From assembly GCF_009931435.1 (NCBI RefSeq), contig NZ_CP043414.1: 64,000 nt of DNA. One strand, given 5' to 3'. Positions 6,770 to 9,227 of the stretch are shown piece after piece; the first letter of the stretch is position 1; each line of letters begins with the position of its first letter. Both the position numbers and the translations under genes were made by a program. Below the pieces are notes generated by a model, which was not told the DNA's origin, made no database searches, and worked only from the letters and a program-made list of their open reading frames with translations. The DNA is from Escherichia coli. Lineage in GTDB: Bacteria > Pseudomonadota > Gammaproteobacteria > Enterobacterales > Enterobacteriaceae.

Positions 6770-7135
6770 TTAAATTTTCCTGCCTGGCGTAAACCTCTTA
6801 AAAATTGAGATTTATCAAAGAAACGCATTTTAGCACACATCAGGAACTGCTTCACGTTTAGTCCAGAAACAGAATTTATTTCGCTTATCAAAACAAGTCT
6901 TTACTCTTTTTTACATTGAAAGAGCACGAAATGATTTCCTTTTTTATTTATATAAGAAACCATTTTTGTTTCTTATTGATGGTGTTTACGCTTACACCAG
7001 ACAAAAATGCGCTTTACATCACACAAATGGCGGCGTAGATTTCGATTAAATTGCAACGTAGTTTATTTCTTAAAACAATATTATTTGTTTCTTATGGAAA
7101 CATTAATGCGACTTATTTTGAACAAGAGAAAATGA

Positions 7136-8152
7136 ATGAAAACTGTAAACGTAGCTTTACTGGCACTCATAATTTCAGCAACATCCAGCCCTATTGTTTT
7201 AGCTGGTGATACCATTGAAGCGGCGGCAACAGAGCTTTCAGCCATTAACTCTGGCATGTCGCAATCGGAGATTGAGCAGAAGATTACCCGCTTTTTAGAA
7301 CGCACCGACAACAGCCCCGCTGCATATACCTATTTGACTGAACATCACTACATCCCTTCTGAAACACCTGATACCACTCTGACTCCCCCTGTCCAGACAG
7401 ATCCTGACGCAGGACAAAAAACCGTTGCCGCTACAGGTGATGTACAGACAACCGCCCGTTATCAGAGCATGATCAACGCCCGACAGTCTGCGGTAACTGA
7501 TGCCCAGCAAACGCAAATTACAGAGCAACAGGCGCAGATCGTAGCCACACAAAAAACGCTCGCCGCGACTGGAGATACGCAAAATACCGCGCATTATCAG
7601 GAGATGATTAATGCCAGGCTGGCGGCTCAAAATGAGGCTAATCAGCGCACTACCACTGAACAAGGGCAGAAAATGAATGCGCTGACAACCGATGTGGCAG
7701 CACAACAGCAATATGAAAGGACTCAATACGATAAACAAATGCAAAGTCTGGCGCAGAAGTCTGTCCAGGCACATGAGCAAATTGAAAGTCTGAGACAAGA
7801 TTCCGCACAAACGCAGCAACAGTTAACCAACACCCAAAACCGGGTCGCTGATAACAGCCAGCAAATTAACACGCTCAATAACCATTTCGATTCTCTGAAA
7901 AACGAAGTTGAGGACAATCGTAAAGAAGCCAATGCGGGAACTGCATCTGCCATCGCTATCGCCTCACAACCACAGGTGAAAACCGGTGACTTGATGATGG
8001 TGTCAGCGGGAGCGGGAACGTTCAACGGTGAATCTGCGGTGTCTGTAGGAACATCTTTTAATGCCGGAACGCATACGGTACTTAAAGCAGGTATTTCTGC
8101 GGATACACAATCTGATTTCGGTGCGGGTGTCGGCGTGGGATATTCGTTCTAA
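7136..8152 (+). CDS. Short trimeric-autotransporter-like protein with YadA-type C-terminal membrane anchor
   Basis: N-terminal signal peptide (MKTVNVALLALIISATSSPIVLAGD), Q-rich coiled-coil stalk with an internal ~40-aa duplication, and a C-terminal ~75 aa (ASAIAIASQPQ...GDLMMVSAGAGTFNGESAVSVG...FGAGVGVGYSF) matching the YadA anchor pattern with a terminal aromatic. Confidence 0.75.
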   Translation: MKTVNVALLALIISATSSPIVLAGDTIEAAATELSAINSGMSQSEIEQKITRFLERTDNSPAAYTYLTEHHYIPSETPDTTLTPPVQTDPDAGQKTVAATGDVQTTARYQSMINARQSAVTDAQQTQITEQQAQIVATQKTLAATGDTQNTAHYQEMINARLAAQNEANQRTTTEQGQKMNALTTDVAAQQQYERTQYDKQMQSLAQKSVQAHEQIESLRQDSAQTQQQLTNTQNRVADNSQQINTLNNHFDSLKNEVEDNRKEANAGTASAIAIASQPQVKTGDLMMVSAGAGTFNGESAVSVGTSFNAGTHTVLKAGISADTQSDFGAGVGVGYSF

Positions 8153-8205
8153 TTTTAACAGCAATTTCTTATTCGCAATTTTCCGCACATTATTTAAGGT
8201 TAACA

Positions 8206-8628
8206 ATGATGAATAGCTCCATTAAATCGTTTTCCCTGCTGGCGGTTATATTACTGGCTGGCTGTAGTTCACCCACTTCCGGCATCGCAGATTGCCAGGC
8301 GCAGGGCGTCAGTCATGATACCTGTTATCTCGCAGAACAGCAGCGTCAGACGGCTATTTTAAGTGCATCCGAGGCGCAGGCATTTAAAAATGCAGAAGCC
8401 GCACAACATGCCCAGGCGGCAAAGAAAGCCATTTATAAAGGATTTGGCGTCACCTTCAGAATGAGCAGTAAGAACTTTGCTTATCTCAATGATTCATTAT
8501 GTGCCATAGATGAAGATAATGCCGATGCCACGGTTTATCAGTCGGGTCTGTATAACGTCATTGTTTATCATCACACAGGAAAAATCGCCTTAATGAAAGA
8601 AGGCCAGTTTGTGGGTTATTTAAAATGA
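8206..8628 (+). CDS. Putative lipoprotein (140 aa)
   Basis: Signal peptide ending in lipobox L-A-G-C (LLAGCSS); same strand and immediately downstream of the autotransporter-like gene. Confidence 0.6.
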   Translation: MMNSSIKSFSLLAVILLAGCSSPTSGIADCQAQGVSHDTCYLAEQQRQTAILSASEAQAFKNAEAAQHAQAAKKAIYKGFGVTFRMSSKNFAYLNDSLCAIDEDNADATVYQSGLYNVIVYHHTGKIALMKEGQFVGYLK

Positions 8629-8816
8629 AACTCACGCTTATACATATTATGATTATTGGCGCTTTTATCTTTGCATTCTTGCAAGTGGTATTATTAGCCT
8701 CCCTGGTTCACGCTATGAATGTTAACAACGAAATCCAGGAAGGCTTATTTCAGTCGGGGCGCATTATGGTAGAAAGTTTGCAGCATATTCTTTCGGTGCA
8801 AACGGGGATTAACTGA
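8625..8816 (+). CDS. Putative small membrane protein (63 aa), translationally coupled to the lipoprotein gene
   Basis: ATGA start/stop overlap with the upstream ORF; one predicted transmembrane helix (IMIIGAFIFAFLQVVLLASLV). Its stop lies 3 bp from the convergent cueR stop. Confidence 0.4.
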   Translation: MKLTLIHIMIIGAFIFAFLQVVLLASLVHAMNVNNEIQEGLFQSGRIMVESLQHILSVQTGIN

Positions 8817-8819
8817 TTT

Positions 8820-9227
8820 TCACCCTGCCCGATGATGACAGCAGCCAGAGAGATTTTCGATAATCGGGCAATCGGCGCTGTCATCACCGGGGCAGGCATT
8901 CGCCAGCGCCAGTAGCTGGTCGCGCATGGATTGCAGCTCCTCAATGTGCCGTTCGATCTCCGCCACCTTCTCCAGCGTGCGCCGTTTTACATCGGCGCTA
9001 TGCCGCTGCGGGTCGTTAAACAGATTTACCAGTTCGCCGCTCTCTTCCAGGTTAAAGCCCACCTGGCGCGCCTGGCGCAGTAAGGTCAGTTCGTTGAGAT
9101 GCTGCTGCGTGTAGGTTCGATAACCATTTTCGCTGCGCATCGGCGGCGTCACCAGCCCCTTTTCTTCATAGAAGCGAATGGCTTTGCTGGTCAGGCCGGT
9201 AATTTTTGCTACATCGCTAATGTTCAT
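8820..9227 (-). CDS. cueR: Cu(I)-responsive MerR-family transcriptional activator CueR
   Basis: 135-aa [29 protein letters not shown]..., with the MerR HTH and the C-terminal metal-binding [10 protein letters not shown] motif. Confidence 0.95.

What the first reader, a model, noticed from the sequence alone, without database searches (positions are those of the whole stretch)
7420..7680. Internal ~40-codon duplication in the stalk of the autotransporter-like protein
The stalk contains two consecutive units, QKTVAATGDVQTTARYQSMINARQSAVTDAQQTQITEQQAQIVAT and QKTLAATGDTQNTAHYQEMINARLAAQNEANQRTTTEQGQKMNAL. A duplicated coiled-coil segment is a common way for trimeric autotransporters to vary stalk length; this points to recent length variation in a surface protein.
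Basis: seen in the sequence. Interest (0 to 1): 0.3.

Follow-up and report, generated by a model that had tools for sequence, protein, structure and literature searches.

The report
Ancient two-unit repeat in autotransporter stalk
The two 45-residue repeats are real but are an old, fixed feature of the stalk of a small E. coli outer-membrane fibre protein, not a recent length change. The same gene has been published as a transcription factor (GmrA), which its sequence contradicts.

Summary
The two units are real: aa 94-138 and 139-183 of the 338-aa ORF at 7136-8152 (nt 7415-7549 and 7550-7684). They share 25/45 residues, with a diagonal score of 130 against 42±7 in shuffles. The protein has a signal peptide, a helical stalk and a YadA-type anchor, so it is a trimeric autotransporter by sequence.

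The duplication is ancient, not recent. The units are 58% identical in DNA, synonymous sites are saturated (pS 0.79), and Tandem Repeats Finder (TRF) sees no repeat. Each unit type (A and B) is conserved orthologously in divergent E. coli alleles, in cryptic-clade and E. ruysiae genes, and in a mobile-element paralogue. No full-length relative has one unit. The 338-aa allele is the same length in 1,027 complete genomes.

Length polymorphism at the locus is real but lies elsewhere:
- a 369-bp (123-aa) module in 0-3 near-identical tandem copies, giving 338, 471, 594 or 717 aa;
- heptad steps in unit A (38, 45 or 52 aa);
- rare recent extra A units (480, 497 and 577 aa).

The window carries the shortest form.

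The parts
7136..8152 (+). [not shown]
   Evidence: ORF. It is 95.8-99.8% identical over its full length to RefSeq 'YadA family autotransporter adhesin' genes lying between ybbJ and cueR. The published gmrA deletion, cloning and FLAG primers map to 7097-7135, 7136-7159, 8131-8149 and 8153-8190.
7136..7204 (+). Predicted Sec signal peptide (aa 1-23, MKTVNVALLALIISATSSPIVLA, then GD).
   Evidence: Read directly from the sequence: Lys at position 2, a hydrophobic core, and small residues at -3/-1 (V-L-A). L8, L9, A10, S18, P19 and A23 are invariant across family alignment A1. AF2 pLDDT is below 50 for residues 1-24. No dedicated signal-peptide predictor was available.
7205..7351 (+). N-terminal tip domain (aa 24-72), a small three-helix bundle of unknown function.
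7352..7414 (+). Pro/Thr-rich linker (aa 73-93), predicted disordered.
   Evidence: The sequence is IPSETPDTTLTPPVQTDPDAG. AF2 pLDDT is below 50 for residues 76-103. This is the least conserved region between alleles (38-48% aa identity).
7415..7549 (+). Stalk unit A (aa 94-138): QKTVAATGDVQTTARYQSMINARQSAVTDAQQTQITEQQAQIVAT.
   Evidence: Orthologous A-type units occur in all family members at 38, 45 or 52 aa.
7550..7684 (+). Stalk unit B (aa 139-183): QKTLAATGDTQNTAHYQEMINARLAAQNEANQRTTTEQGQKMNAL.
   Evidence: The B-type unit is always the last one and is 45 aa in all six sequenced alleles compared, from E. coli, a cryptic clade and E. ruysiae. The AF2 helix breaks at G146-D147.
7685..7930 (+). 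Distal stalk (aa 184-265), a continuous helix running into the anchor. It contains a weak 14-residue (42-nt) internal repeat and Asn-at-core motifs (VADNSQQI, VEDNRKEA).
   Evidence: AF2 helix 148-276 with pLDDT up to 96. A 20-nt direct repeat at 42-nt spacing lies at 7731/7773. A self-diagonal at offset 14 scores 57. In the long alleles TRF reports period 42, 2 copies, 78% matches.
7931..8149 (+). C-terminal membrane-anchor region (aa 266-338). The Pfam YadA_anchor match covers aa 279-338 (nt 7970-8149), and the protein ends in ...GYSF.
   Evidence: Pfam PF03895, E 7.3e-12, 45.6 bits against a cut-off of 22.7, profile positions 1-60 of 60. PDB sequence matches are AtaA 9vnj (4e-7), Hia 2gr7/3emo and YadA 2lme. 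The region is nearly invariant across the family and 100% identical in protein to a 471-aa allele whose passenger has dS >= 1.

Best explanation
The two units are an ancient tandem duplication that is now a fixed structural part of the stalk of a small trimeric autotransporter (type Vc secretion).

The protein would be exported by Sec. Three C-terminal four-strand segments would assemble into a 12-strand outer-membrane barrel. The rest would form a parallel trimeric fibre carrying a small three-helix tip domain.

Each unit consists of a conserved, non-helical head (K-T-[VL]-A-A-T-G-D) followed by about 36-43 helical residues. By hand the unit reads as 9+7+11+11+7 = 45 residues, so the head may be a nonad of the beta-layer type. 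That point is inferred, at roughly 0.3 probability.

The A and B units diverged before the Escherichia species and allele classes separated, and they have been inherited as a pair ever since. They no longer share enough DNA identity to recombine with each other.

Stalk length at this locus is varied by other, younger events:
- a 369-bp (123-aa) coiled-coil module present in 0, 1, 2 or 3 tandem copies;
- single-heptad insertions and deletions in unit A (38, 45 or 52 aa);
- occasional fresh duplications of unit A.

The window carries the shortest form, with no module and a 45-aa unit A.

Shown here: the anatomy, the age of the pair, its conservation, and the census. Inferred: trimerisation, surface display, the coiled-coil register, and the idea that length variation sets how far the tip domain projects and changes antigenicity.
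For: Real duplication:
- Diagonal score 130 against 41.9±6.7 in shuffles, with 0 of 500 reaching it.
- The unit profile finds exactly two copies, at 79 and 82 bits.

Autotransporter architecture:
- YadA_anchor at E 7e-12 over the whole profile.
- AtaA, Hia and YadA anchors are the best PDB sequence matches.
- AF2 places helices at 103-145 and 148-276, with the break at G146-D147.
- The signal-peptide-like N-terminus is conserved across the family.

Age of the pair:
- Units are 58% identical in DNA, and 29 of the 45 third codon positions differ.
- pS is 0.79 (saturated) and pN 0.31.
- TRF and the repeat finder detect nothing.
- A-type and B-type units group by type, not by allele, in E. coli 338-aa and 471-aa alleles, a 497-aa cryptic-clade allele and a 480-aa E. 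ruysiae allele.
- A mobile-element paralogue, 40% identical and collinear from unit A to the C-terminus, also has the pair.

Fixation:
- 1,027 complete genomes carry the allele at exactly 1017 bp.
- All listed members of the 1,187-member cluster are 338 aa.
- No full-length relative has one unit.

Younger length variation elsewhere:
- 369-bp repeat x2.9 in E. coli 042 (intact 717-aa ORF) and x1.9 in TUM20902 (594 aa), with 96% matches.
- About 76 of 5,426 complete genomes carry a module-module junction.
- Unit spacing is 38, 45 or 52 aa in 38, 27 and 69 cases.
- Extra A units are 88% and 94% identical in DNA to their neighbours.

Surface-protein-like evolution:
- Passenger dS is >= 1 between E. 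coli alleles, while the anchor is 100% identical in protein with dS 0.15.
- A 345-aa mosaic allele exists.
Against: - Trimerisation, outer-membrane insertion and surface exposure were not tested, and cannot be tested here.
- The AF2 monomer model is poor over the anchor (pLDDT 26-41).
- My automatic heptad-register scan was noisy in this polar, Gln-rich stalk. The 9+7+11+11+7 register and the beta-layer idea rest on hand assignment and on a helix break in a monomer model.
- The unit head matches only about 3 of the 6 positions of the published beta-layer consensus [aliphatic]-A-T-K-[polar]-[DE].
- Published experiments assign a different function. His-tagged GmrA shifted a fliA promoter fragment, GmrA-3xFLAG was enriched at fliA in ChIP-qPCR, and deletion of the gene reduced motility.
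- Deletion of the whole island did not reduce adherence to HeLa or Caco-2 cells (PMC5826968).
Confidence: 0.85

Rival explanations
1. One reading: the pair is a recent duplication and marks ongoing copy-number variation of this 45-aa segment among isolates.
For: Tandem head-to-tail arrangement with an identical 45-aa period. Related alleles do show recent duplications of the A unit: 88% nt identity in a 497-aa form, and 94% by direct comparison (91% by TRF) in E. ruysiae.
Against: pS between the window's units is 0.79 and DNA identity is 58%. Nothing is detected by TRF. Both unit types are conserved across species. The allele length is invariant in 1,027 genomes and in a 1,187-member cluster.
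Confidence: 0.03
2. The resemblance is not common descent. It is convergence or compositional bias between two stretches of Gln/Ala/Thr-rich coiled coil.
For: The C-terminal halves of the units are only 45% identical in DNA and are low-complexity and Gln-rich. Coiled-coil families give many weak spurious hits, for example the SMC and ATG16 matches.
Against: Composition-preserving shuffles never approach the observed score (maximum 73 against 130). The conserved head, QKT[VL]AATGD.Q.TA.YQ.MINAR, is not a heptad pattern and is identical at 17 of 23 positions. The same motif with the same spacing recurs in every family member.
Confidence: 0.02
3. The protein is what the literature says: GmrA, a cytoplasmic DNA-binding transcriptional activator that binds the fliA promoter. 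On this reading the repeated units belong to a dimerisation or DNA-binding coiled coil rather than a surface stalk.
For: PMC5826968 reports reduced motility and flagellation in the deletion mutant, complementation in trans, an EMSA shift of a fliA promoter fragment, ChIP-qPCR enrichment, and conserved phenotypes in eight strains. The primers show that the gene studied is exactly this ORF.
Against: - No DNA-binding family appears in Pfam or NCBIfam at E <= 1. The only matches are the YadA anchor and non-specific coiled-coil hits.
- The protein has a conserved signal peptide and a complete YadA-type barrel segment ending in an aromatic residue.
- RefSeq and an earlier genome paper call it a YadA-family or Saa-like adhesin.
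- The constructs used for EMSA (N-terminal His tag ahead of the signal peptide) and ChIP (3xFLAG fused directly after the terminal Phe of the barrel) would be expected to block export or barrel assembly. They would then leave an unnatural cytoplasmic or periplasmic species. This last point is my inference from primer positions and from general knowledge of outer-membrane protein biogenesis.
Confidence: 0.1

Closest known systems
YadA-family trimeric autotransporter adhesins (YadA, Hia, AtaA; type Vc secretion)
   Same: A C-terminal YadA-type anchor with significant sequence matches to the solved AtaA, Hia and YadA anchors. A long helical stalk runs directly into the anchor, and there is an N-terminal signal peptide. 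Repetitive, modular stalks whose segment number differs between alleles are a general feature of the family (my own knowledge; TAA architecture is reviewed in PMC7247746).
   Different: At 338 aa it is very small. No recognised head, neck or connector domain was found: Pfam has nothing N-terminal of the anchor. The tip is a 49-residue three-helix bundle with no structural relative. Adhesion has not been shown, and deleting the island left HeLa and Caco-2 adherence unchanged.
Saa, the STEC autoagglutinating adhesin (the Sakai orthologue ECs0548 was labelled 'Saa-like protein')
   Same: Both are E. coli trimeric autotransporters of a few hundred residues. From memory (Paton et al. 2001, which I could not retrieve), Saa variants differ in the number of a ~37-aa repeat near the C-terminus. 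That would be the same kind of length polymorphism as the modules described here. The 'Saa-like' label comes from PMC2323221.
   Different: The 45-aa unit is not shared. A search with the two-unit segment against 1.84 billion representative proteins returned only this family and one paralogue. The tblastn search of plasmids gave only anchor-level matches outside this family. Saa itself was not aligned directly.
Neisseria NadA and Moraxella UspA1/UspA2 (small or modular coiled-coil trimeric autotransporters)
   Same: From my own knowledge: these are mostly coiled-coil passengers whose allelic variants differ by heptad-multiple insertions and deletions and by exchanged cassettes. That resembles the 38/45/52-aa unit A, the 0-3 modules and the mosaic alleles seen here.
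   Different: No sequence relationship beyond the anchor was detected. The comparison is by analogy and was not tested with these tools.
Beta-layer / alpha-beta coiled coils (Actinobacillus OMP100 stalk, Tcar0761; Hartmann et al. 2016, PMC4786415)
   Same: A short non-helical insert in a trimeric autotransporter stalk that occupies a nonad. The published motifs are I-E-N-[K-A-D]-K-A-D and M-A-T-[K-D-D]-I-A-N. The unit head here, [VL]-A-A-[T-G-D]-x-Q-x, can be read the same way, and the AF2 helix breaks exactly at G146-D147.
   Different: Only the aliphatic first residue, the Ala at position 2 and the acidic sixth residue match the consensus [aliphatic]-A-T-K-[polar]-[DE]. The register was assigned by hand and no trimer model or structure exists. 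This is a lead, not a membership claim.
[quoted passage not shown]
   Same: It is the same gene. The window ORF is 95.8% identical in DNA to the EDL933 gene, and every published gmrA primer maps onto or flanks 7136-8152.
   Different: The published function, a DNA-binding activator of fliA, is not reflected in any sequence or structural feature I could detect. Neither the original paper nor the 2024 review of it that I searched mentions the YadA anchor, and nothing in the passages I read refers to a signal peptide or to the internal repeats.

Membership tests
Trimeric autotransporter adhesin (YadA family, type Vc) | C-terminal YadA-type membrane anchor (four beta-strands per chain, 12-strand barrel in the trimer) | tested here: met
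   Pfam PF03895 at E 7.3e-12, 45.6 bits against a cut-off of 22.7, profile positions 1-60 of 60, aa 279-338. phmmer matches to the solved AtaA, Hia and YadA anchors at E 4e-7 to 0.04.
Trimeric autotransporter adhesin (YadA family, type Vc) | N-terminal Sec signal peptide | tested here: met
   By inspection only: MKTVNVALLALIISATSSPIVLA then GD, with the hydrophobic core and Ala at -1 conserved in 24 family members. No signal-peptide predictor was available.
Trimeric autotransporter adhesin (YadA family, type Vc) | Coiled-coil stalk continuous with the anchor | tested here: met
   AF2 helix 148-276 with pLDDT up to 96, leading into the anchor. A canonical heptad register holds over aa 197-227 and 240-261. 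Asn-at-core motifs lie next to the anchor (read from the sequence).
Trimeric autotransporter adhesin (YadA family, type Vc) | Obligate trimer displayed on the cell surface | not testable with these tools
   Needs fractionation, SDS-resistant trimer detection, surface labelling, or a multimer structure prediction.
Trimeric autotransporter adhesin (YadA family, type Vc) | Recognised adhesive head or neck domains (common, but not strictly defining) | tested here: not met
   No Pfam domain N-terminal of the anchor. The tip domain is a three-helix bundle without a PDB relative.
Saa-like adhesins | Sequence similarity to Saa beyond the anchor, or a shared stalk repeat | tested here: inconclusive
   The two-unit query found only its own family among 1.84 billion representative proteins. 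Plasmid tblastn gave only anchor-level matches. Saa itself was never retrieved or aligned.
DNA-binding transcription factor (GmrA as published) | A recognisable DNA-binding domain | tested here: not met
   [not shown]
DNA-binding transcription factor (GmrA as published) | Cytoplasmic location | tested here: not met
   The sequence predicts export and outer-membrane anchoring. This is a prediction, not an experiment.
DNA-binding transcription factor (GmrA as published) | Specific promoter binding in vitro and in vivo | not testable with these tools
   Reported by EMSA and ChIP-qPCR in PMC5826968, using tagged full-length precursor constructs.
Beta-layer-containing (alpha/beta) coiled coil | Insertion of 2 or 6 residues into the heptad pattern (a nonad or hexad) at the motif | tested here: inconclusive
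   The hand register 9+7+11+11+7 = 45 places I113, V120, I128, I135 and L142 in core positions. The automatic register scan was noisy.
Beta-layer-containing (alpha/beta) coiled coil | Consensus [aliphatic]-A-T-K-[polar]-[DE] | tested here: inconclusive
   The unit head [VL]-A-A-T-G-D matches positions 1, 2 and 6 only (consensus from PMC4786415). The AF2 monomer helix breaks at G146-D147.

The most novel reading that the evidence does not exclude
A protein with the full architecture of an outer-membrane trimeric autotransporter (signal peptide, coiled-coil passenger, YadA anchor) might also be a transcriptional activator, as published for GmrA. For example, a non-exported or released form could bind the fliA promoter. 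That would couple surface-fibre production to flagellar gene expression through one polypeptide.

A more modest novel reading is that the conserved [VL]AATGD head of each unit forms a beta-layer. The stalk would then be a natural alpha/beta coiled coil built from exchangeable units. I put that at roughly 0.3 probability, with modest interest.
Probability: 0.05. Interest if true: 0.85.

Novelty: new member of a known kind. Interest (0 to 1): 0.3.

Why it matters
As posed, the finding matters little. An old, fixed tandem repeat in an autotransporter stalk is ordinary.

Three by-products are more useful.

1. The locus does carry a genuine length-variable surface-protein gene. A 369-bp module occurs in 0-3 copies, giving proteins of 338 to 717 aa. 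RefSeq largely hides this, because the long alleles I examined are annotated only as 349-431-aa C-terminal fragments without a signal peptide.

2. The gene is the published 'transcription factor' GmrA. The sequence says it should be an exported outer-membrane fibre, so the mechanism behind the reported motility phenotype needs re-examination. The phenotype might be indirect, for example through envelope stress or a surface-fibre effect, but that is speculation.

3. The conserved unit head is a candidate new stalk connector, possibly a beta-layer, that could be tested structurally.

Tried and rejected
- DNA-level repeat detection in the window gene found nothing at the 135-nt period (TRF at minimum score 30; the repeat finder with seed 7). 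I took this as evidence of age, not of absence.
- A possible degenerate third unit was suggested because the offset-45 diagonal runs on to aa 157/202. The unit profile finds no third copy, so I rejected it.
- My own sliding-window heptad-register scan was too noisy in the polar stalk to locate discontinuities. The register is therefore given only as a hand assignment.
- Saa literature: the 2001 Saa paper is not held, and two STEC papers gave no statement on Saa repeats. One further call failed on a term that was too short. The Saa repeat comparison therefore rests on memory.
- I asked whether the downstream 140-aa lipoprotein and the small membrane protein form a conserved partner set with the autotransporter. 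They are syntenic across Escherichia species. However, the genes next to the mobile-element paralogue are not homologous to them, and neither has a family match. No conclusion was drawn.
- I considered predicting a linked three-chain construct to test the beta-layer idea. I did not run it: orientation could not be checked from the tool's output, and a negative result would be uninformative.
- The junction search joins non-collinear pieces in single-module alleles, so its count of 182 genomes at >= 80% coverage overstates the number with a true junction. I used the single-piece, >= 99% identity class (76 genomes) as the estimate for genomes with two or more modules. That figure is approximate.
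Full report
**The observation**

The region lies in a 338-aa ORF at window 7136-8152 on the + strand. The two quoted units are present exactly as written, at aa 94-138 and 139-183, which is nt 7415-7549 and 7550-7684. They share 25 of 45 residues and 78 of 135 nucleotides. The similarity is uneven: the first 23 codons (QKT[VL]AATGD.Q.TA.YQ.MINAR) are 70% identical in DNA, and the last 22 codons are 45% identical.

The match is not a by-product of the Gln/Ala/Thr-rich composition. The best ungapped self-diagonal has offset 45 and BLOSUM62 score 130. Across 500 shuffles of the stalk the mean was 41.9, sd 6.7 and maximum 73. A profile built from family units finds exactly two copies in the window protein and no third.

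**What the protein is**

- Pfam places a complete YadA_anchor domain at aa 279-338 (E 7e-12, 45.6 bits against a cut-off of 22.7, profile positions 1-60 of 60).
- The best sequence matches among solved structures are the membrane anchors of AtaA, Hia and YadA.
- The N-terminus reads as a Sec signal peptide (MKTVNVALLALIISATSSPIVLA, then GD) and is conserved across relatives.
- An AlphaFold2 monomer model (mean pLDDT 64) shows three short helices at aa 27-69 and a disordered Pro/Thr-rich linker. Two long helices follow, at 103-145 and 148-276, and run into the anchor. The only break is at G146-D147, inside the head of unit B. The helix of unit A starts immediately after the equivalent T100-G101-D102.

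By sequence this is a small trimeric autotransporter: signal peptide, tip domain, linker, stalk, anchor. Trimerisation and surface display are inferred, not shown.

**Where it sits**

The window is E. coli. The gene lies between ybbJ and cueR in the small island called OI-29 in O157:H7. The island has a lower G+C content (32-47%) than its flanks (51-60%). The same four-gene arrangement is found at the same place in E. ruysiae and in cryptic-clade Escherichia. The arrangement is a 120-aa divergent gene, the autotransporter, a 140-aa lipoprotein and a 63-67-aa membrane protein.

**Age of the duplication**

- Within the window, 29 of the 45 third codon positions differ between the units.
- By Nei-Gojobori counting, pS is 0.79 (saturated) and pN is 0.31.
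- TRF and the repeat finder detect nothing at the DNA level.
- I aligned the units from six sequenced alleles: window, EDL933, two 471-aa E. coli alleles, a 497-aa cryptic-clade allele and a 480-aa E. ruysiae allele. They fall into two types. Type A is ...ARYQSM..ARQ... and is always first. Type B is ...AHYQEM.NARL.AQN[DE]AN... and is always last.
- Orthologous A-A or B-B comparisons across these lineages differ at 15-20 of 38 third positions. A-B comparisons within any one allele differ at 20-24 of 38.
- A distant paralogue on a mobile element is 40% identical and collinear from unit A to the C-terminus, and it also has the pair (P0126).

The A/B duplication therefore predates the divergence of these lineages and has been inherited as a pair.

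**Is the pair length-variable?**

Not in this allele class. The 1017-bp gene aligns end to end without length change in 1,027 of 5,426 complete E. coli genomes. All listed members of its 1,187-member 90% cluster are 338 aa. Among 140 family proteins retrieved, no full-length member has a single unit. Nearly all have two, and seven cluster representatives (480, 497 and 577 aa) have three.

The third units are recent copies of type A. They are 88% identical in DNA in the 497-aa form and 94% identical in E. ruysiae, where TRF reports a 156-bp repeat x2.4 at 91% matches.

**Where the length variation really is**

Family lengths run from 338 to 717 aa. Three mechanisms account for them.

1. *A 369-bp (123-aa) module.* It is typical autotransporter coiled coil (..IDANKAAI....NIEQNRSDI..) and lies between the linker and unit A. 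It is absent from the window allele and single in the 457-471-aa alleles. It is present x1.9 in strain TUM20902 (intact ORF 594 aa) and x2.9 in E. coli 042 (intact ORF 717 aa), with 96% identity between copies. A query spanning the module-module junction is matched as one full-length piece in about 76 complete genomes. This figure is approximate, because the tool also joins non-collinear pieces in single-module alleles.

2. *Heptad steps in unit A.* Start-to-start spacing of successive units is 38, 45 or 52 residues in 38, 27 and 69 cases. TRF sees the corresponding 21-bp duplication in the 52-aa form.

3. *Recombination between allele classes.* Between the window allele and a 471-aa E. coli allele the passenger has dS >= 1. 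The anchor is 100% identical in protein, with dS 0.15. A 345-aa protein combines the short-type N-terminus with the long-type stalk. The window and EDL933 differ mainly in the distal stalk, which is 85% identical in protein against >= 96% for every other region except the short Pro/Thr linker (90%).

The particular pair it saw is the stable part, and the window carries the shortest form.

**How the unit may work (inference)**

Reading core positions by hand, each unit fits 9+7+11+11+7 = 45 residues. [VL]-A-A-[T-G-D]-x-Q-x forms the nonad. I113, V120, I128, I135 and L142 then occupy core positions. The 38-aa and 52-aa variants differ by exactly one heptad each way.

A nonad in a trimeric autotransporter stalk is the setting in which Hartmann et al. 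described the beta-layer. That is a three-residue non-helical crossing that rotates the chains by 120°. Their motifs were IENKADKAD and MATKDDIAN, with consensus [aliphatic]-A-T-K-[polar]-[DE]. The head here matches only positions 1, 2 and 6 of that consensus. My automatic register scan was noisy. The only structural support is a helix break in a monomer model. I rate this at about 0.3.

The two-unit segment is specific to this family. A search of 1.84 billion representative proteins found it nowhere else.

**The conflict with the literature**

- the deletion arms end at 7135 and begin at 8153;
- the pET28a forward primer is 7136-7159, the ATG plus the signal-peptide codons;
- the 3xFLAG reverse primer ends at 8149, the codon for the terminal Phe of the barrel;
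- the qPCR amplicon lies in the anchor.

An earlier genome comparison listed a Sakai gene, ECs0548, as a 'Saa-like protein' absent from K-12. I take this to be the Sakai orthologue from its genome position and strain distribution; I did not check the correspondence by sequence. RefSeq calls the gene a YadA family autotransporter adhesin. The 2024 GmrA review I term-searched contains no mention of YadA, and none appears in the passages I read in the original paper or in two other papers that cite GmrA.

I find no DNA-binding domain. The constructs used for EMSA and ChIP would probably not follow the normal export pathway. That is my inference from primer positions and from general knowledge of outer-membrane protein biogenesis.

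The genetic phenotype looks robust: reduced motility, complemented in trans, in several strains. The same paper reports that deleting the whole island did not change adherence to HeLa or Caco-2 cells. So neither 'adhesin' nor 'direct activator' is established for the native protein. I keep the published function as a rival at about 0.1, and I flag a dual-function protein as the most novel reading not excluded.

**Verdict**

The finding itself is an ordinary feature of a known protein family. The by-products are the hidden 369-bp module polymorphism, the truncated RefSeq gene models, and the mismatch between this protein's architecture and its published role. They are worth a note to specialists.

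Noticed in passing
[not shown]
   Followed up: yes
L002 3339-4756 (AST240); L003 3224-4639 (FDAARGOS_1262); L010 301-2085 (TUM20902); L011 166-2319 (E. coli 042): RefSeq annotates the long alleles only as 349-431-aa C-terminal CDSs. Some start at TTG or at an internal Met, and all lack the signal peptide. Intact ORFs of 471, 471, 594 and 717 aa with a homologous signal peptide are present, and the 369-bp repeat region is shown as unannotated.
   Followed up: partly
L011 463-1546 (E. coli 042); L010 598-1312 (TUM20902): A 369-bp tandem repeat (x2.9 and x1.9, 96% matches) encodes a 123-aa coiled-coil module. This is the real length-variable element of the gene and is absent from the window allele.
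   Followed up: yes
[not shown]
   Followed up: no
window 8206-8628 and 8625-8816 (+): Directly downstream lie a 140-aa lipoprotein (lipobox LLAGC) and an overlapping 63-aa hydrophobic protein. Neither has a family match beyond weak lipoprotein-signal hits. Both are syntenic with the autotransporter in E. coli, E. ruysiae and cryptic clades, so they may be accessory factors.
   Followed up: partly
L008 1413-5194 (E. coli VCSW5, CP082355.1): A mobile element with a large serine recombinase and phage-like genes is inserted next to ybbJ. It carries a 397-aa paralogue (P0126) that keeps the two-unit, distal-stalk and anchor cassette (40% identity) behind an unrelated N-terminal part.
   Followed up: partly
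window 7685-7930, compared with L001 (EDL933): Between the window allele and the O157:H7 allele, divergence is concentrated in the distal stalk: 85% aa identity and dN/dS 0.38, against >= 96% for every other region except the 21-aa Pro/Thr linker (90%). EDL933 resembles the long-allele sequence there, which suggests a recombination patch.
   Followed up: partly
window 9224-12558 (-); L003 5755-5852: Beyond cueR lie genes for a HlyD-family adaptor and a type I secretion ABC permease/ATPase. In FDAARGOS_1262 these are replaced by a short pseudogene remnant followed by ybaT-glsA. The neighbouring island is therefore also present or absent between strains.
   Followed up: no
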